IMG/VR virus record: IMGVR_UViG_3300007513_000984
Span: 1-64,000 of that record
Strand: one strand, 5' to 3'
Origin: a virus
DNA: 64,000 bases
Position 1 is the stretch's first letter. Each line of letters begins with the position of its first letter. The notes under the pieces were generated by a model, which was given only the letters and a program-made list of their open reading frames with translations, was not told where the DNA came from and made no database searches. A program made the position numbers and the translations under genes. This document shows, piece after piece, positions 4,922-57,226 of the stretch.

Positions 4922-5953
4922 TACATCTAATCTAGTCAAGTCTGCTTGCCCTGGTAAATGTAATCCCATTTTTGCTATGTAATCAGTATTAGGAGTTGGA
5001 GTTTTCCATTGACTATGAAATGGTTGGTCACATAAACTATAATATACTGCTCTGCATCCTATTCCATTTTCTCTAAGATAATTTGCTAATGCATCTCTGT
5101 TGTCAACTAATATTTCTGGATAAGTTGGCGTTGTATAAAGTAAATCAGTAGAAACAAAATCACAAACATCGTGTAAACCCTCAGTGTACGCATCATAGAT
5201 ATCTTTCTTATGTTCAACAATACTAGGCAACTTTTTCATTTGTGCAACACCGAATGCGGCTTGAATGTCTGTAAACTTAAAGTTCATACCCATTACATTG
5301 TAGACCTCACCCACAGCAACCGTTCTACCAAAGTTCTTTATGGTATGAATTTTCTTACTCAGTTCTTCATCATTGGTGATAATACAACCACCTTGTCCTG
5401 TTGTGATAATCTTCGGAGCACCAAAACTGAATATTCCAAGATGACCCATTGTACCAATATGATTTTCTTTATGCCAACTTCCTAATGCTTGGGCACTATC
5501 TTCAATTACAAATCTTCCTTCACTACGCAACTTTGCTATATGTAACCATGCATCATCTGGATATCTTCCATTGATACTTGTAACAAACACAACACGACAA
5601 TCATCGGGTATACTTTCAAAGTCAATAGTATAAGAAGACTGGTCAACGTCAACTATAACTGGTGTTGCTCCCATTAGAATAGCACCATTAGCCGTAGCGG
5701 CCTGTGTATAGGCACTTACAGCAAATCTTTCATTAGGTTTTATATCAGCAACCATCGAAGCAATTAAAAGTCCAGTTGTAGCACTTGTTACCATGTGTGC
5801 ATATTTGGCGCCAGTGTAATCACATATCATTTGTTCCATCTCTCTGGTTTTGGTGTGTTCCATTATCCACCCACCAGAGGTGATATACTCTGTTACACTT
5901 TCTATTTCTTCTTCCCCATATACTGGGTTCATATGGCTGTTAGGCGTTATCAT
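4868..5953 (-). CDS. DegT/DnrJ/EryC1/StrS PLP-dependent sugar aminotransferase (perosamine synthase-like)
   Basis: SATTGL, IEDSAQALG, FSFGAPKIITTGQGG (Schiff-base Lys) and GMNFKFTDIQAA. Confidence 0.9.
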   Translation of the reverse strand: MITPNSHMNPVYGEEEIESVTEYITSGGWIMEHTKTREMEQMICDYTGAKYAHMVTSATTGLLIASMVADIKPNERFAVSAYTQAATANGAILMGATPVIVDVDQSSYTIDFESIPDDCRVVFVTSINGRYPDDAWLHIAKLRSEGRFVIEDSAQALGSWHKENHIGTMGHLGIFSFGAPKIITTGQGGCIITNDEELSKKIHTIKNFGRTVAVGEVYNVMGMNFKFTDIQAAFGVAQMKKLPSIVEHKKDIYDAYTEGLHDVCDFVSTDLLYTTPTYPEILVDNRDALANYLRENGIGCRAVYYSLCDQPFHSQWKTPTPNTDYIAKMGLHLPGQADLTRLDVLSICKIVRTGLIECNKI

Positions 5954-6848
5954 AATACCATCCGTATGTTTCTGTTAGTGCTTCTTCTAATGTATATTTT
6001 GGTGTCCATCCTAGTTCTTTCAACCTTGAATTATCAATTGCTCTGTTTTTAATTCCTTCTGGTCTATCAGTGTTATACCACAATCTACCTTTGAATCCAC
6101 TTATTGTTTTTAATGTTTCTGCTAAAGTTCTAATAGAAGTTTCAACTCCACTAGCAACGTTAACTGTATCATATTTATTGTTGTTTAGAATTATATCCAT
6201 TGCACTTATGGCATCCTTGATATAAATCAAATCTCTACTTTGATTACCGCTTCCCCATATTTCAATCTCAGTGTGGTCTTCTTTAACTGCTGTAACAAAC
6301 TTTTGCATTAACGCACCAATTACGTGTGCGTGTTCTCCTGTTCTATCATTTGGTCCAAACATATTAGAGTTTATTGCAGTACGCCAATGTGTTCCTGCCT
6401 TTTCATTCTTTGCTCTACACTGATACATGCCCATTAACTTTGGCATTGCTGTTGGTAAATATGTCTTGTGTGGTTCACCTTCCATTAGTTGGTCTTCATT
6501 ATATGGTTGACTTCCCTCTGCTGGATAACTACAAGTGCTTCCTTGTAACAGCACTCTATCTATACCAAACTCAGAACACACATCAAATATATTATTCTGA
6601 ATAGTCAAATTCTTTATCATCAGTTCATAACTTTTATCTAAGTCTTCTTGTAGACCACCAACTGTGGCCGCATTGATGATTACGTGTGTTGGCAATCCAT
6701 ATGTTCTTCCTAATCTCATAAATTCTCTGATTGTACTAGTCAGGTCACTATAGTTAACTGTGTCTGTATTGCCACCTAGAGAATTACTAATTACATTACT
6801 GTAATGTGTTCCTACTAATCCTCTATTTCCTGCTATATAATATTTCAT
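5940..6848 (-). CDS. fcl: GDP-L-fucose synthase family epimerase/reductase with an atypical active site
   Basis: GNRGLVG, AATVGG, GSTCSYP, HVIGALM, IWGSG..SRDLIY. The YxxxK Tyr is replaced by Thr (PTAMPK). Confidence 0.8.
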   Translation of the reverse strand: MKYYIAGNRGLVGTHYSNVISNSLGGNTDTVNYSDLTSTIREFMRLGRTYGLPTHVIINAATVGGLQEDLDKSYELMIKNLTIQNNIFDVCSEFGIDRVLLQGSTCSYPAEGSQPYNEDQLMEGEPHKTYLPTAMPKLMGMYQCRAKNEKAGTHWRTAINSNMFGPNDRTGEHAHVIGALMQKFVTAVKEDHTEIEIWGSGNQSRDLIYIKDAISAMDIILNNNKYDTVNVASGVETSIRTLAETLKTISGFKGRLWYNTDRPEGIKNRAIDNSRLKELGWTPKYTLEEALTETYGWYYDNA

Positions 6849-7633
6849 TTATTAAACCTATTACTATTTGTTATTACAAAATAATCATATAATGAACGTT
6901 TCTGTGTTACTCCCCAATGACAAATCTTTTGATGCTCTCTCACTAATCTAAGTTCTTCTTTAAATCCTGGCATAGTATATGCAAATGGATACGGTTGCAT
7001 AACTGCCATACCATTTGGAGTAAGATACTTTCTTATATTTTCTATGAAAAATAAAAGTTCTTCAGTGTTATATGGAGAAAAGAATGAATGTGTTTCACCG
7101 TCTTTGTCCATAACCCAAAACTCATTTTCTAAAAGTCCTTTGTGATATCTTATTACTCTGTTTGAATTCCAAAGCATGTTTGTCTGTGTTGCTAAAATCA
7201 AATCATATTTTTTATTTAAAACAAATTCTTCTTTTGGTTTTACATGTAGGTCAATAGGTGCAACTCCCATTTCTTTCCACACAAGTTCTAGTTCATACAA
7301 ATGTTCACTTGCTTCTGTACTAGAGTTTGTACACTCTACATTAGTAAACCCATGCTCTTTAAGAAAATGTGGAATGAATCCGAATTGTGTACCCATATCA
7401 AGAATAGCAAGGTCTTTTGATGCGTCTGAAAGTTTTACATTCTCCATAATCTCTATATGATAATTCCAAAAATCTACATTTAGTTTCTCTTCAAAATTGC
7501 TTCTATGCATCTCTATTCTATTTGAACAGTTTGCTATATTTGGATAATTCTTAGAAAAATTAGTAAGATACTTTTCGAAAGACTCTTGTATATCTAATGA
7601 TAAAATTTTATAATATTTATTCGCTGATTTCAC
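6845..7633 (-). CDS. Class I SAM-dependent methyltransferase-like protein
   Basis: ILDMGTQFG motif I, KYDLIL motif, and LTPNG near the C-terminus. Confidence 0.6.
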   Translation of the reverse strand: MKSANKYYKILSLDIQESFEKYLTNFSKNYPNIANCSNRIEMHRSNFEEKLNVDFWNYHIEIMENVKLSDASKDLAILDMGTQFGFIPHFLKEHGFTNVECTNSSTEASEHLYELELVWKEMGVAPIDLHVKPKEEFVLNKKYDLILATQTNMLWNSNRVIRYHKGLLENEFWVMDKDGETHSFFSPYNTEELLFFIENIRKYLTPNGMAVMQPYPFAYTMPGFKEELRLVREHQKICHWGVTQKRSLYDYFVITNSNRFNK

Positions 7634-54650: not shown

Positions 54651-54679
54651 TTGACTTTGATGGTCCAGTATGTTAGTAT
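54651..54679 (+). promoter_or_regulatory. Sigma70-type promoter
   Basis: TTGACT-17 bp-TAGTAT with TGn. Confidence 0.7.
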
Positions 54680-54685
54680 TATATA

Positions 54686-54812
54686 ATCAACGGAAGCCTA
54701 TGTCTCCTCTAAACCTCTCTCATCGACACTGGCCTCTAGTTGATACTCTATCAGAACGATAGAGGAGTTCGACAAAAGGCCCGGTACCAGAAATGGTATC
54801 GGGTTTTTTCTT
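54686..54812 (+). ncRNA. Putative ~125-nt small RNA (or attenuated leader)
   Basis: Lies between a sigma70 promoter and an intrinsic terminator; three hairpins, a CU-rich loop and no convincing ORF. Confidence 0.6.
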
Positions 54813-54840: not shown

Positions 54841-55107
54841 ATGAGAGAAATCCCAATGACTAGTAAAAACTATGAAAATTTGAAATGGTTTGCGACATTT
54901 ATGTTTGTTCTTGCTGGAGTATTGATATCTCTGAATATAGAACAATCTAAATGGGCTTTTCCATTATTCGCAACAGGACATATGACTGTGCTGTTCGTAT
55001 TTTTAAGATTAAAGGATAAGCCAATGATTTTTCAGAATAGTTTCTTCTTGGCTATTGATTTCTTAGGAATATATCAGTGGTTATTGGCGCCTATATTTTT
55101 TGTTTAA
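54841..55107 (+). CDS. Small membrane protein (about 3 TM helices)
   Basis: Three hydrophobic segments. The start may be the ATG at 54856. Confidence 0.65.
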   Translation: MREIPMTSKNYENLKWFATFMFVLAGVLISLNIEQSKWAFPLFATGHMTVLFVFLRLKDKPMIFQNSFFLAIDFLGIYQWLLAPIFFV

Positions 55108-55528
55108 GGCTTTTTAGATACTCAGTAAGAATTTTTGAACTTCCCACTCGTACATTGATAATACCATTATAGTATTCATCTGTTTCTAAGACTCTTCGGT
55201 CAAATTGTTCTTTTGCTTCTAGGTAACTCATTGCACCACGACTAGGACAGTAGTGGAGTATTTCACGTGTAAATTTATCTTGGCCTAATTTTTTTACATC
55301 GGCATTTAAATAGTCAGAAGAACCCCAATAAGTTCTCCAATCACTTTCTTTATATCCACGTCTTTTGTTCTTTCTGCCTTTAAGAGGTGGTTTTGTTGTT
55401 TTAAATCGTGATAACTTCTTACCAATGTACTTACGATTATCTACAAGATTTGTAATTATATACACAAATCCCTCAACATTCTCAGGTAATTCATCTACAA
55501 CTTTATTTTTATATGTCCATTCACTCAT
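55091..55528 (-). CDS. GIY-YIG family nuclease-like protein (Seg-like)
   Basis: GFVYIITN...KYIGKK, YWGSS, FTREIL and YYN. Confidence 0.8.
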   Translation of the reverse strand: MSEWTYKNKVVDELPENVEGFVYIITNLVDNRKYIGKKLSRFKTTKPPLKGRKNKRRGYKESDWRTYWGSSDYLNADVKKLGQDKFTREILHYCPSRGAMSYLEAKEQFDRRVLETDEYYNGIINVRVGSSKILTEYLKSLKQKI

Positions 55529-55619
55529 GGTGTTCTCATTCTAATAGGTCTAAAGACCTAATATCTTCGGAAATCTTCGATTTCCTCGATATTTCTTTTT
55601 TCAATTCAATATTATTTAT

Positions 55620-56097
55620 CCGCTTGTCAGTTCGGAAGACACAATTGCCCATCCGACTGGGCAACTGCTGAGATACTTGTCAAGTTCATCAGACTCTATG
55701 TCTAAGTTAGCCACTAGCAATGGCGAGGTCGGTTGGCGATTCCCTCGTAACTTAGTATTGCGTCTTTCGACCCAACGGCACTTTGAATAATCCACATAGA
55801 ATAAAATATCATCAAAGTTGGTAGTGTTTTTAACCTACCTGCGGTTTGTACATTTCTGTACGGTAAATACTAGTCATTCAATACCTTTAGAGTATTGAAT
55901 GTTTTGATACAAACAATTTTGTGGTTAACGAGAAGCAGTGTCGGAGTTCACCCAACTTATCCGAACGTATGTAAAATATACGCCCTCAATCCCGAGTCGG
56001 CATCCCGACTAACAGTTCCACTATGTAATGCCGTATTAGTTCTTTATTAGTTCTTTGGGGATTTGTATTAGATTTGAATCGATTTATATTAGTTATG
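55620..56097 (-). ncRNA. Candidate large structured non-coding RNA (~480 nt, unassigned family)
   Basis: ORF-free; ~42% GC over 55621-56040 (hand count); about 10 helices; GAAA tetraloops and G-U pairs that form only on the minus strand; own sigma70 promoter. Confidence 0.65.
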
Positions 56098-56103
56098 TTG
56101 AAC

Positions 56104-56132
56104 ATACTAACACAAAGGAAAAGGGATGTCAA
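56104..56132 (-). promoter_or_regulatory. Sigma70-type promoter pointing into the structured non-coding region
   Basis: Minus strand TTGACA-17 bp-TAGTAT with TGn. Confidence 0.75.
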
Positions 56133-56159
56133 CCCTTTTTGTAACTTTTTTGTATTTTT

Positions 56160-56393
56160 TTATAAAATAGGTACGCCAGCCTTCTTACTCATCTCAAAAT
56201 TCTCAGAAACTATATCATTTAGATACGTTATATGATTAATAGGCATATCATGGAGTTCAGATATACTGACGCCACCACGCATATACCAAGTTAGTTTATA
56301 CAAGGATTTGTGTAGAGATTCAAGTGATTTCTTATAAGACTCTTGTTTCTCTATTACTTCAGTGTCGCTGGCAGTCTTTAACCAGCCGAGGAA
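56160..56393 (-). CDS. gp51-like baseplate hub assembly domain, probably expressed as a -1 frameshift extension of the gp26-like gene
   Basis: LTWYMRGGVSISELHDMP motif. The in-frame ATG at 56441 has only a GAGG 1 nt upstream; the ORF overlaps the gp26-like end at slippery A-AAU-UUU. Confidence 0.6.
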   Translation of the reverse strand, partial: FLGWLKTASDTEVIEKQESYKKSLESLHKSLYKLTWYMRGGVSISELHDMPINHITYLNDIVSENFEMSKKAGVPIL

Positions 56394-57226
56394 AAATTTA
56401 CAGGATTTAGTTGGAAAGTAACTTTCTCCTTGCTTTTGCATGCCTCACAAGCAAATTCAAACGTTGATATGTCTTGTAAATTTGGAGATGCAACACTTAC
56501 CGCCTTGTTTACATCGTTTACGACCTTACTTGGAACATTTTCCATAAATTCTTCAATCATTGTATTGTCAGTAACAACTTGGTCAGGTGTTTCAATTCTG
56601 TCGATAGAACTTATTAATAGGTCTATGTTCTGTTTTGATACTTTTCTGAAACTGAGAGCAAATTGTTTTGCCATAGCAATTTCATCGCTATCATCACTTT
56701 CTCCTGTTTCTTTGATTTTGTTTAATATGCGAGATTGTTCAACTTCCATTAGAGCCAGTGTTGTTAGACTGTCTAATTTTGGCGGAGTTATAAATATTTT
56801 TAAATCTTCATGTTCAATTGGAGGAATTTCAGTTATTTCTGGAAACTTTTCAAGAATATGATTGATATCTATATTGTAATCTGCCTTTTCTTTACACTCA
56901 GAGCAAGTGTGGGTATGTTGAACGTTTTTGCCATACGTTGCATATTTGATTGCTAGATATATCATTTCTGCATCAACATTGCATAAATTCCTTGGATTTG
57001 GAATCACCGGAACACAACTTTTGATGAGATTTATGAGTGCCTCGCCGTTAAGTAGTTCATCGGGATTCTGCATTGATATTTCATCAATAGCAGTCATCGG
57101 AAGTATAGGTAACTCGTCCAATACAGTTTTTTCTATTTCTGGATTAAATCTGCCACCGGTTGGAATTTGTACATATATTCCCGGTTTACGGAAATATTTT
57201 GATAATGGGTTCTCATTGGTGTTCAT
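56378..57226 (-). CDS. Baseplate hub assembly protein, T4 gp26-like
   Basis: NPLSKYFRKP, PMTAIDEI, AIKYATYG and two CxxC motifs (CSEC, CEAC). Confidence 0.8.
   Translation of the reverse strand: MNTNENPLSKYFRKPGIYVQIPTGGRFNPEIEKTVLDELPILPMTAIDEISMQNPDELLNGEALINLIKSCVPVIPNPRNLCNVDAEMIYLAIKYATYGKNVQHTHTCSECKEKADYNIDINHILEKFPEITEIPPIEHEDLKIFITPPKLDSLTTLALMEVEQSRILNKIKETGESDDSDEIAMAKQFALSFRKVSKQNIDLLISSIDRIETPDQVVTDNTMIEEFMENVPSKVVNDVNKAVSVASPNLQDISTFEFACEACKSKEKVTFQLNPVNFSSAG

What the first reader, a model, noticed from the sequence alone, without database searches (positions are those of the whole stretch)
55545..56132. Large, ornate, promoter-driven non-coding RNA candidate upstream of a GIY-YIG nuclease
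Seen: the longest ORF-free gap in the window (~630 bp) is GC-enriched (~42% over 55621-56040) and has its own minus-strand promoter, TTGACA-17-TAGTAT (start near 56097). Helices on the minus strand: AGUCGG/CCGACU (55995-56010); 55941-55964; a perfect 10-bp stem (55875-55901); GUACA-GAAA-UGUAC (55848-55861); 55820-55839; ACUUUGA/UCAAAGU (55780-55818); GUC-GAAA-GAC (55758-55775); a three-way junction closed by CUAAGUUA/UAACUUAG (55702-55755); and a 10-bp stem (55642-55667). The two GNRA loops and the G-U pairs work only on the minus strand, matching the promoter. Long-range options: loop GUCGGA (55652-57) is complementary to UCCGAC (55940-45), and GUUCGGA (55960-66) to UCCGAAC (55630-36). Both compete with the local 55941-55964 helix, suggesting a pseudoknot or switch. 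It lacks RNase P, tmRNA and intron hallmarks. Inference: an unassigned phage RNA that could be a partner or guide for the downstream GIY-YIG protein, a ribozyme or scaffold, or an R-loop primer RNA at a replication origin.
Basis: partly seen in the sequence, partly recalled or inferred. Interest (0 to 1): 0.87.

Follow-up and report, generated by a model that had tools for sequence, protein, structure and literature searches.

The report
New knotted RNA, marine jumbo phages
The gene-free gap holds a real gene for a roughly 550-nucleotide, intricately folded non-coding RNA of an uncatalogued family kept by uncultured marine giant phages; the small DNA-cutting enzyme gene behind it is a swappable passenger, and what the RNA does is still unknown.

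Summary
Window 56132-55546 (minus strand) carries a conserved sigma-70-type promoter and a structured RNA with no Rfam 15 match. About 100 IMG/VR and metagenome contigs of related marine T4-like jumbo phages keep it at one spot, between a gp51-like gene and gp46. On 44 distinct sequences (66-93% identical), 95.8% of cells pair, against 34-44% in slid controls, and 41 pairs change on both sides.

Seen here:
- A 7-9-nt word flanks hairpin P16 twice (R1, R2). Its variable triplet (AAC, GAC, AUC or GGC) is identical in both copies in 44/44 sequences, across about 7 switches, with no complementary site in cis.
- The RNA continues through a covarying hairpin H1 and an invariant hairpin H2.
- The next gene is a GIY-YIG nuclease, a PD-(D/E)XK nuclease or a radical-SAM gene.

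The nuclease is therefore a replaceable cassette, not a demonstrated partner.

Best reading (about 40%): a stand-alone scaffold or RNP RNA that shows one word twice. Rivals are a cis leader, an R-loop primer and a ribozyme. This scan found the same family before on other DNA, with the same verdict.

The parts
56104..56132 (-). Sigma-70-type promoter, TTGACA-17-(TG)TAGTAT; transcription would start near 56097
   Evidence: Best site of the scan. Both hexamers invariant in 18 close relatives. TTGCAA or TTGATA-17-TATAAT/TATACT at the same place in distant members.
56034..56097 (-). A/U-rich leader without covarying helices; four CUAAUA repeats (56092-87, 56071-66, 56050-45, 56039-34) spaced 21, 21 and 11 nt
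   Evidence: Read. The repeats are kept in all clades, up to three perfect 11-nt tandem units in L108. The length between repeats varies through indels.
55911..56021 (-). 5' domain: P1 (56021-18/55924-21), P2 (56010-05/56000-55995), P3 (55994-90/55933-29), P4 (55985-78/55970-63), P6 (55956-51/55945-40), and pseudoknot PK2 (P6 loop GAAC 55949-46 with GUUU 55914-11)
   Evidence: P2, P4, P6 and PK2 show changes on both sides. P1 and P3 are invariant, so untested.
55875..55901 (-). P7, a 10-bp hairpin with the conserved loop CUCUAAAGG
   Evidence: 6 of 10 pairs change on both sides.
55848..55861 (-). P8, GUACA-GAAA-UGUAC; an optional peripheral hairpin
   Evidence: GUGUA-GGAA-UACAC in L023. Absent or replaced in distant clades.
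55820..55839 (-). P9 hairpin
   Evidence: GC to AU exchange in 20 of 44 sequences at one pair; 3 of 5 pairs change on both sides.
55695..55818 (-). 3' domain, the most conserved part. P10 (55818-12/55786-80), whose loop holds the 5' strand of P11 (55800-794/55701-695), giving a pseudoknot. PK1 GUUGG 55776-72 with CCAAC 55736-32. P12 GUC-GAAA-GAC (55771-62). Three-way junction P13 (55755-48/55709-02), P14 (55746-43/55728-25), P15 (55724-20/55714-10).
   Evidence: PK1's end pair G-C/A-U (26/18) is the top covarying pair of the whole alignment. P11, P12, P13 and P15 have many double changes. P10 is extended and compensated in distant clades. Model R1 finds one copy in the 89.7-kb record.
55676..55682 (-). 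R1: first copy of the twin word (UGACAAG here)
55641..55668 (-). P16 hairpin; its 3' strand GGGCAAUUGUG is nearly invariant, and G-U/U-G pairs fit the RNA strand only
   Evidence: helix 18.
55623..55629 (-). R2: second copy of the twin word (UGACAAG); last conserved letters of the core
   Evidence: Same triplet as R1 in 44/44 distinct sequences, in four variants. A tree built without these columns needs 7 switches. No complement within -200/+330 nt and none in the window.
55586..55622 (-). A/U-rich spacer, variable in length and sequence; holds a late-promoter-like AUAAAUAA (55619-12)
   Evidence: About 30 to over 100 nt in relatives. ATAAATA is present in roughly half of them, counted by eye.
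55569..55585 (-). H1 hairpin. The window carries a 19-20-nt deletion that still leaves a hairpin. Relatives have a longer stem around the conserved UGAGYGAAASGAA.
   Evidence: All 9 predicted H1 stem pairs have compensatory changes (for the deletion).
55546..55559 (-). H2, AGGUCUUUAGACCU: a 6+6 inverted repeat, sequence-invariant; the variable cassette begins within about 10-35 nt after it
   Evidence: Exactly one perfect copy per locus in 105 of the 125 loci held, many of them duplicate cuts of the same contigs. Kept with GIY-YIG, PD-(D/E)XK or radical-SAM genes downstream.
55091..55528 (-). 145-aa GIY-YIG nuclease gene (catalytic domain only); a replaceable cassette, not part of the RNA
   Evidence: PF19835 at 2e-34 and phrog_447. 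Swapped for PF24608 in other members. Mutually exclusive with PF24608 in 5 records. 80.7% aa identity to Melnitz phages.

Best explanation
This is a single-copy gene for a roughly 550-nt non-coding RNA of a new family. It is carried by a clade of uncultured marine T4-like jumbo phages. Their nearest cultured kin are the PA5oct, Atu_ph07 and Phosso types, with portal proteins about 52% identical.

Shown:
- The RNA lies on the minus strand under its own conserved sigma-70-type promoter.
- It begins with an A/U-rich leader bearing four CUAAUA repeats.
- It folds into two domains of 16 helices locked by three pseudoknots.
- It displays the same 7-9-nt word twice, as R1 and R2 on either side of hairpin P16.
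- It continues through an A/U-rich spacer into hairpins H1 (covarying) and H2 (invariant).
- The gene behind it is a swappable cassette: GIY-YIG, PD-(D/E)XK or radical-SAM.

Inferred mechanism:
- The RNA acts on its own as a compact structural or RNP RNA, in the manner of the orphan large phage RNAs GOLLD and ROOL.
- It uses the twin, identity-locked words to bind two copies (or two equivalent sites) of one partner.
- H1 and H2 serve as protein-binding or 3'-end modules.
- The downstream nuclease gene is expressed by read-through, or from a late-type promoter in the spacer.
- That nuclease gene sits there because a highly conserved, strongly transcribed RNA gene is a good landing and homing site.

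The confidence given (0.4) is for this mechanism. That it is a real structured RNA gene of a new family I hold at about 0.9.
For: Reality of the RNA:
- Fold z = -4.94.
- The gap is more conserved than the flanking genes.
- 95.8% of cells pair, against 34-44% in slid controls. 41 pairs change on both sides against 5-14. No shuffle in 500 reaches these values.
- The PK1 end pair is the top covarying pair.
- H1 has 9 of 9 compensated pairs.
- 329 of 353 indel runs are not multiples of three.

New family: no hit at Rfam gathering scores and nothing relevant at E up to 10; no tRNA or tmRNA.

Own promoter.

One copy per record, at a fixed position.

Independence from the nuclease:
- Different downstream genes follow an unchanged RNA, H1 and H2.
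- GIY-YIG and PD-(D/E)XK are mutually exclusive.
- The GIY-YIG gene occurs without the RNA in Melnitz and S-SRM01.
- It is 80.7% identical to the Melnitz protein but 44% or less in the other rows sampled down the ranking; 794 of 798 records are below 60%.

Twin words: the triplet is identical in both copies in 44/44 sequences, over 7 inferred switches.

Presence in RNA libraries: contigs of four marine RNA libraries cover the stretch, at low depth.
Against: - No function was tested, and no partner for R1/R2 was found.
- No terminator separates the RNA from the next ORF. One RNA-library contig runs from the core into the GIY-YIG gene (55286-55989). A cis role is therefore not excluded.
- Another contig crosses the promoter (55951-56224). 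The libraries may contain DNA, and contigs cannot show strand or ends.
- The phased CTAATA repeats, the A/T-rich tract and the direct repeats also fit an origin-like DNA reading.
- Every downstream gene lies on the same strand.
- A nuclease gene follows the gap in distant cultured relatives as well. A functional link to 'a nuclease' is therefore not ruled out.
Confidence: 0.4

Rival explanations
1. A giant cis-acting leader. The core senses something (a protein, an RNA such as a tRNA, or a metabolite). Through the spacer, H1 and H2 it gates expression of whatever gene sits downstream, usually a potentially toxic nuclease. T4 controls I-TevI and gene 49 in a comparable way, with hairpins in early read-through transcripts; that comparison is from my own knowledge.
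For: - No terminator lies between the RNA and the ORF.
- H2 ends 18-35 nt before the start codon of every cassette.
- All downstream genes are co-oriented.
- One RNA-library contig bridges the core and the GIY-YIG gene.
- H1 and H2 are conserved whatever the ORF.
Against: - The regulated gene is not conserved: three unrelated ORFs occupy the slot. Nothing suggests a common signal for them.
- 16 helices with three pseudoknots far exceed known leaders.
- No alternative pairing between the core and H1, H2 or the ribosome-binding site was found.
- A late-type promoter motif in the spacer of about half the members would bypass the core.
Confidence: 0.2
2. A replication-origin transcript of the ColE1 RNA II or T4 oriF/oriG type. 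The folded RNA stays hybridised to the template in the A/T-rich tract and primes DNA synthesis. R1, exposed in a loop, would pair with template DNA at R2, which would explain why the two words must be identical. The CTAATA repeats would be iterons.
For: - The layout is a promoter, then phased repeats (21, 21 and 11 bp), a structured RNA, direct repeats and an A/T-rich tract of variable sequence.
- R2 is the last conserved word before the A/T tract.
- The neighbourhood is recombination and replication genes: gp46/47 and a resolvase-like PD-(D/E)XK. Phosso has RNase HI beside the equivalent gap.
Against: - Invariant junction nucleotides and three pseudoknots go beyond what a primer is known to need.
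- H1 and H2 lie downstream of the A/T tract, yet they covary or are conserved as RNA.
- Late-type promoter motifs suggest expression throughout infection.
- GC skew here merely follows gene orientation.
- No initiator protein was identified, and no neighbouring protein column tracks R.
Confidence: 0.15
3. A large ribozyme that processes its own transcript. It might cut at R1 and R2, or shape the 5' end of the nuclease mRNA, as the lariat-capping GIR1 ribozyme does ahead of homing-endonuclease genes.
For: - Its size, pseudoknotted core and invariant junctions are ribozyme-like.
- It sits directly upstream of a homing-type nuclease gene.
- Two identical words could be two equivalent cleavage sites.
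Against: - No match to any Rfam ribozyme model, including group I, group II, GIR1, RNase P and the small self-cleavers.
- No guide complementary to R1/R2.
- No interrupted host gene: the upstream ORF ends with a stop, followed by a promoter.
Confidence: 0.08
4. One reading: a guide or partner RNA that gives the minimal, DNA-binding-domain-less GIY-YIG nuclease its target specificity.
For: - The 145-aa protein is the catalytic domain alone (PF19835 covers residues 4-124).
- The RNA carries a short variable, 'programmable' word.
- Some nuclease gene follows in most members.
Against: - The nuclease is exchanged for an unrelated fold with no change in the RNA. L068 (GIY-YIG) and L071 (PD-(D/E)XK) even share the same word, GGCAAGU.
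- In L040 a radical-SAM gene lies between the RNA and the nuclease gene.
- The same GIY-YIG family occurs in 798 phage records, and its closest homologue lacks the RNA.
- No GIY-YIG column covaries with the word.
Confidence: 0.04

Closest known systems
GOLLD and ROOL RNAs (large ornate orphan RNAs, often on phages and prophages; RNA-only homo-oligomers by cryo-EM, PMC12286853)
   Same: Several hundred nucleotides long, multi-domain, pseudoknotted, phage-borne, promoter-driven, of unknown function and with no obligatory protein gene.
   Different: No sequence or structure match. The hosts are marine T4-like jumbo phages. It has the twin identity-locked words, the CUAAUA leader and the H1/H2 tail. 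Oligomerisation was not tested.
OLE RNA (large structured RNA embedded in an operon, working as an RNP)
   Same: A large structured RNA co-oriented with, and not terminated before, the neighbouring genes.
   Different: No Rfam match. No conserved partner-protein genes lie beside it, and the neighbours are swappable.
Lariat-capping (GIR1) ribozyme and group I introns with homing-endonuclease genes
   Same: A pseudoknotted RNA directly upstream of a homing-type nuclease ORF.
   Different: No model match. It is not inside a host gene, there are no splice sites, and it has its own promoter. The nuclease is exchangeable.
ColE1 RNA II and T4 origin transcripts (from my own knowledge)
   Same: A roughly 0.5-kb folded transcript that runs into an A/T-rich tract. 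In ColE1, an upstream RNA segment identical to a downstream one can anchor the transcript to the template.
   Different: Far more elaborate and conserved tertiary architecture. Conserved RNA hairpins lie beyond the A/T tract. There is no evidence of initiation.
T-box leaders
   Same: The variable triplet is always NNC followed by A, as in specifier codons. A GA-rich, kink-turn-like hairpin is present.
   Different: No model match. There are two triplets. The base after the conserved UGG does not track the triplet (read by eye). The downstream genes are unrelated to amino acids.

Membership tests
Any Rfam 15 family (including GOLLD, ROOL, OLE, HEARO, raiA, IMES, RNase P, tmRNA, 6S, T-box, ribozymes) | Score at or above the family's covariance-model threshold | tested here: not met
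   No match at gathering scores in the whole window. At E up to 10 on 55400-56300, the only hit is a chance patAB match on the other strand, 22 bits against a cut-off of 92.
Group I intron | Interrupts a host gene, with exons on both sides | tested here: not met
   The upstream ORF ends with a stop at 56160, followed by a promoter. No downstream exon; the next gene is a complete nuclease ORF.
Group I intron | P3-P7 pseudoknot core recognised by the family model | tested here: not met
   No Intron_gpI hit at E up to 10. The three pseudoknots found have a different topology.
Lariat-capping ribozyme (GIR1) | Family model match; branching at its 3' end | tested here: not met
   No model match. Catalysis cannot be tested with these tools.
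tRNA / tmRNA | Cloverleaf or tRNA-like domain with a tag reading frame | tested here: not met
   ARAGORN finds none in the window.
T-box riboswitch | Specifier codon plus a UGGN bulge that covaries with the tRNA discriminator base; located upstream of an amino-acid gene | tested here: not met
   The triplet is NNC-A. But the base after the conserved UGG does not follow the triplet (read by eye on the alignment; no count was run). No model match. The downstream genes are nucleases or radical-SAM.
Free-standing GIY-YIG homing endonuclease (Seg-like), for the neighbouring ORF | GIY-YIG catalytic domain | tested here: met
   PF19835 SegE_GIY-YIG at 2e-34; PHROG homing-endonuclease families.
Free-standing GIY-YIG homing endonuclease (Seg-like), for the neighbouring ORF | Patchy presence or absence among close relatives, and high similarity across unrelated phages | tested here: met
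   Absent from L065, L066, L071, L080 and L090, where PF24608 takes the slot. 80.7% aa and 73.6% nt identity to Melnitz phages of another family.
Free-standing GIY-YIG homing endonuclease (Seg-like), for the neighbouring ORF | C-terminal DNA-binding domain and site-specific cleavage | tested here: inconclusive
   At 145 aa only the catalytic domain is recognised. Cleavage cannot be tested with these tools.
RNA II-type replication primer | Persistent RNA-DNA hybrid and a DNA start at the RNA's 3' end | not testable with these tools
   Only the anatomy fits: promoter, direct repeats, A/T tract.

The most novel reading that the evidence does not exclude
The twin words are a programmable recognition element. 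The RNA presents one short address (always NNC-A) twice, and evolution re-writes both copies together.

Two concrete forms:
- Codon-like words that dock the anticodon loops of two copies of one tRNA (Asn, Asp, Ile or Gly). This would make it a trans-acting phage RNA that captures or senses tRNAs.
- An upstream copy that anchors the transcript to template DNA at the downstream copy, seeding an R-loop.

Either would be a new kind of phage RNA mechanism.
Probability: 0.15. Interest if true: 0.9.

Novelty: new variant of a known kind. Interest (0 to 1): 0.74.

Why it matters
Large, intricately folded RNAs with no known function are rare, and each has opened new biology. This one is supported by strong covariation and has three pseudoknots. 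A whole clade of abundant but uncultured ocean jumbo phages keeps it once per genome at a fixed place.

It also carries a feature I know from no described RNA: two copies of a short word that are re-written together. That feature gives a concrete handle for experiments, because R1 and R2 can be mutated separately and then together.

The locus also shows how nuclease cassettes of unrelated folds replace each other behind a conserved RNA gene. This is relevant to how homing endonucleases pick their sites.

Tried and rejected
Searches that found nothing:
- Rfam at gathering and permissive thresholds: nothing.
- blastn 'distant' against 50,697 cultured phages: only the GIY-YIG gene matches.
- nhmmer and covariance model R1 on the whole genomes of PA5oct, Phosso, Melnitz and S-SRM01: no homologue. 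The syntenic gaps of PA5oct (z = -1.39) and Phosso (z = -2.74) are not shown to be RNAs. The PA5oct RNA-seq paper lists no ncRNA there (PMC7318152).

Wasted or poorly spent scans:
- One viral scan was wasted on a mis-counted gap.
- The single metagenome scan used too loose a pattern. Only 7 of 118 loci were real members, and they added no new triplet.

RNA libraries:
- Only contigs were available. Cover is low and similar over the neighbouring genes, with no ends or strand. This is no evidence for or against a discrete transcript.

Partner for R1/R2:
- No complement in cis, with G-U pairs allowed.
- No extended target in the window.
- No neighbouring-protein column tracks the word.
- Only one tRNA (Arg) in five records.
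- No reverse transcriptase in the roughly 25%-complete records.
- The unit from R1 to R2 is 50-76 nt, not a multiple of three, and has no consistently open concatemer frame, so there is no DRT2-like repeat gene.

Other ideas dropped:
- Hammerhead: CUGAUGA near R1 is not conserved and there is no model hit.
- Translational bypass: there is no conserved frame.

I stopped that step and read the coordinates by hand from the ruler.

Full report
**What the window is.** The window is a fragment of an IMG/VR virus record of 89.7 kb, with an estimated completeness of 21%. It encodes T4-type parts: portal gp20, a baseplate hub, and gp46/gp47-like SbcCD nucleases. The nearest cultured relatives by portal protein (about 52% identity) are the jumbo phages PA5oct, Atu_ph07 and Phosso.

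**The observation.** The finding covers the 631-bp ORF-free gap between a 93-aa gp51-like ORF (56160-56441) and a 145-aa GIY-YIG ORF (55091-55528), all on the minus strand.
- TTGACA-17-TAGTAT at 56132..56104 is the best promoter-like site in 3 kb. It is invariant in close relatives.
- The minus-strand RNA folds better than all shuffles, with z = -4.94.
- Rfam 15 gives no match at curated thresholds anywhere in the window. At E up to 10 in the gap it gives nothing relevant.
- ARAGORN finds no tRNA or tmRNA.

**Relatives.** A search with the hub protein and three DNA patterns brought in about 100 IMG/VR loci that hold the element. Seven metagenome loci were added later.
- The element always lies between the gp51-like gene and gp46.
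- It occurs once per locus and once in the whole 89.7-kb record.
- The gap is more conserved than the flanking genes: column identity is 0.93-0.98 against 0.78-0.92.
- There are 44 distinct sequences, 66-93% identical.
- 329 of 353 indel runs in the core are not multiples of three.

**Structure.** I drew 18 helices (102 pairs) on alignment A2 and counted them.
- 95.8% of cells form standard pairs, against 34-44% when partners are slid by 1-3 columns.
- 41 pairs change on both sides, against 5-14 in the slid controls.
- 341 compensated cells were counted, against 21-45 in the slid controls.
- None of 500 shuffles reaches these values.
- Both proposed long-range pairings fail, because relatives change one side without compensation.

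Three other pseudoknots are supported:
- PK1 pairs GUUGG (55776-72) with CCAAC (55736-32), which lies in the loop of P14. Its end pair switches G-C to A-U in 18 of 44 sequences. It is the top covarying pair of an unbiased scan.
- PK2 pairs the P6 loop GAAC with GUUU (55914-11).
- The loop of hairpin P10 holds the 5' strand of P11, whose partner lies 100 nt downstream. Both helices covary.

P1 and P3 never vary, so they are untested. Many G-U pairs fit only the minus strand.

**Twin words.** On either side of hairpin P16 the RNA carries the same 7-9-nt word: R1 at 55682-76 and R2 at 55629-23, both UGACAAG here.
- Across the family the word changes: UAUCAAG, GAACAAGU, GGCAAGU, GGCAUG and GGACAGA all occur.
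- The triplet before an invariant A is the same in both copies in all 44 distinct sequences. It is also the same in the later members.
- Only four triplets occur, and all are NNC: AAC, GAC, AUC and GGC.
- A maximum-likelihood tree built without these columns needs 7 switches, and well-supported branches force four origins of GAC. Block recombination could lower this count, but at least three concerted re-writings are needed.
- There is no complementary site within -200/+330 nt, even with G-U pairs allowed. There is no extended target in the window.
- The word is not tied to the type of nuclease: L068 and L071 share GGCAAGU.
- The word is not tied to any column of the neighbouring proteins.

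I cannot explain this identity constraint. The candidates are two binding sites for one partner, anchoring of the transcript to template DNA, or template switching.

**The 3' part.** After R2 comes an A/U-rich spacer of variable length and sequence. In about half of the members it holds a T4-late-type ATAAATA (counted by eye). Two more conserved elements follow.
- H1: all nine predicted stem pairs show compensatory changes, around a conserved UGAGYGAAASGAA.
- H2 is AGGUCUUUAGACCU (55559-46), a 6+6 inverted repeat. A perfect copy occurs exactly once in 105 of the 125 loci held, which include duplicate cuts of the same contigs.
- Both are kept whatever gene follows.

**The neighbour.** The GIY-YIG protein is a SegE-type catalytic domain only.
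- It follows the RNA in most loci.
- L065, L066, L071, L080, L090 and others carry a PD-(D/E)XK nuclease (PF24608) in the same slot.
- L040 and L055 have a radical-SAM-like ORF (CxxxCxxC motif read by eye; no family search) between the RNA and the GIY-YIG gene.
- In five 90-99-kb records the two nuclease families are mutually exclusive.
- The cassette boundary lies within about 10-35 nt after H2.
- The GIY-YIG gene is 80.7% identical in protein, and 73.6% in DNA, to a gene of the Melnitz phages, which belong to another family. Other phages sampled reach 44% or less. Melnitz and S-SRM01 have no such RNA. This is the signature of a mobile homing-type gene.
- PA5oct and Phosso keep a PD-(D/E)XK 'resolvase' in the syntenic slot, behind 1-1.5 kb of non-coding DNA. 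The PD-(D/E)XK gene may therefore be the older resident. I found no RNA homologue in those two genomes.

**Expression.** Only assembled contigs of marine RNA libraries were available. They cover the RNA and its neighbours at low depth. One contig bridges the core and the GIY-YIG gene, and one crosses the promoter. This shows presence in RNA libraries and nothing more.

**Reading.**
- It is a real structured RNA gene of a new family (about 0.9).
- How it works is inferred. Most likely it is a stand-alone scaffold or RNP RNA that shows one address twice (about 0.4).
- The rivals are a giant cis leader for the downstream cassette (0.2), an RNA II-like origin transcript (0.15), a ribozyme (0.08) and a guide for the nuclease (0.04).

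**Earlier reports of this scan.** Follow-up reports on other genomes described the same family and reached the same verdict of a real, uncatalogued RNA with unknown function. I re-derived that verdict independently. I did not see the twin words, the H1/H2 tail, the mutual exclusivity of the two nucleases or the synteny with cultured jumbo phages in the short summaries I could read.

I stopped that step and read the coordinates.

Noticed in passing
window 54841-55107 (+), overlapping the 3' end of the GIY-YIG gene: An 88-aa hydrophobic ORF on the opposite strand is conserved (60-88% aa) in most related loci. It has a weak PnuC-like (NMN transporter) Pfam hit below the curated cut-off.
   Followed up: partly
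window 54651-54809: A promoter-like site (TTGACT-17-TAGTAT, + strand), followed by a strong bidirectional terminator at 54774-54809 between the convergent gene blocks. Another first-reader note calls it an sRNA.
   Followed up: no
L040 5209-6417 (-) and L029 4243-5208 (+): The slot behind the RNA also takes metabolic cargo. One is a 402-aa radical-SAM-like ORF (CxxxCxxC) between the RNA and the GIY-YIG gene. The other is a 321-aa ORF that looks like a Glu/Leu dehydrogenase by eye, beyond the GIY-YIG gene. Neither was run against a family library.
   Followed up: partly
L117 (PA5oct) 5540-7054 and L118 (Phosso) 6229-7244: Cultured jumbo relatives have 1-1.5 kb with no convincing genes in front of a PD-(D/E)XK 'Holliday junction resolvase' at the syntenic place. 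Phosso has RNase HI next to the gap, and the gap folds with z = -2.74. There is no homology to the marine RNA.
   Followed up: partly
window 56378-56441: The hub ORF and the 93-aa ORF overlap by 64 nt in different frames. Another first-reader note proposes a -1 frameshift here.
   Followed up: no
L198 and L235 (metagenome contigs): Two members with the core and the twin words (GAC) but a different 3' tail. No H1 or H2 is recognisable in the 150 nt after R2.
   Followed up: no
L108 and L066 leaders; window 56034-56092: The CUAAUA repeats form up to three perfect 11-nt tandem units (CUAAUAUAAAU). These resemble T4 late promoters (TATAAAT-) and are spaced by about one DNA helical turn. They could be tandem late promoters, iterons or protein-binding sites on the RNA.
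   Followed up: partly
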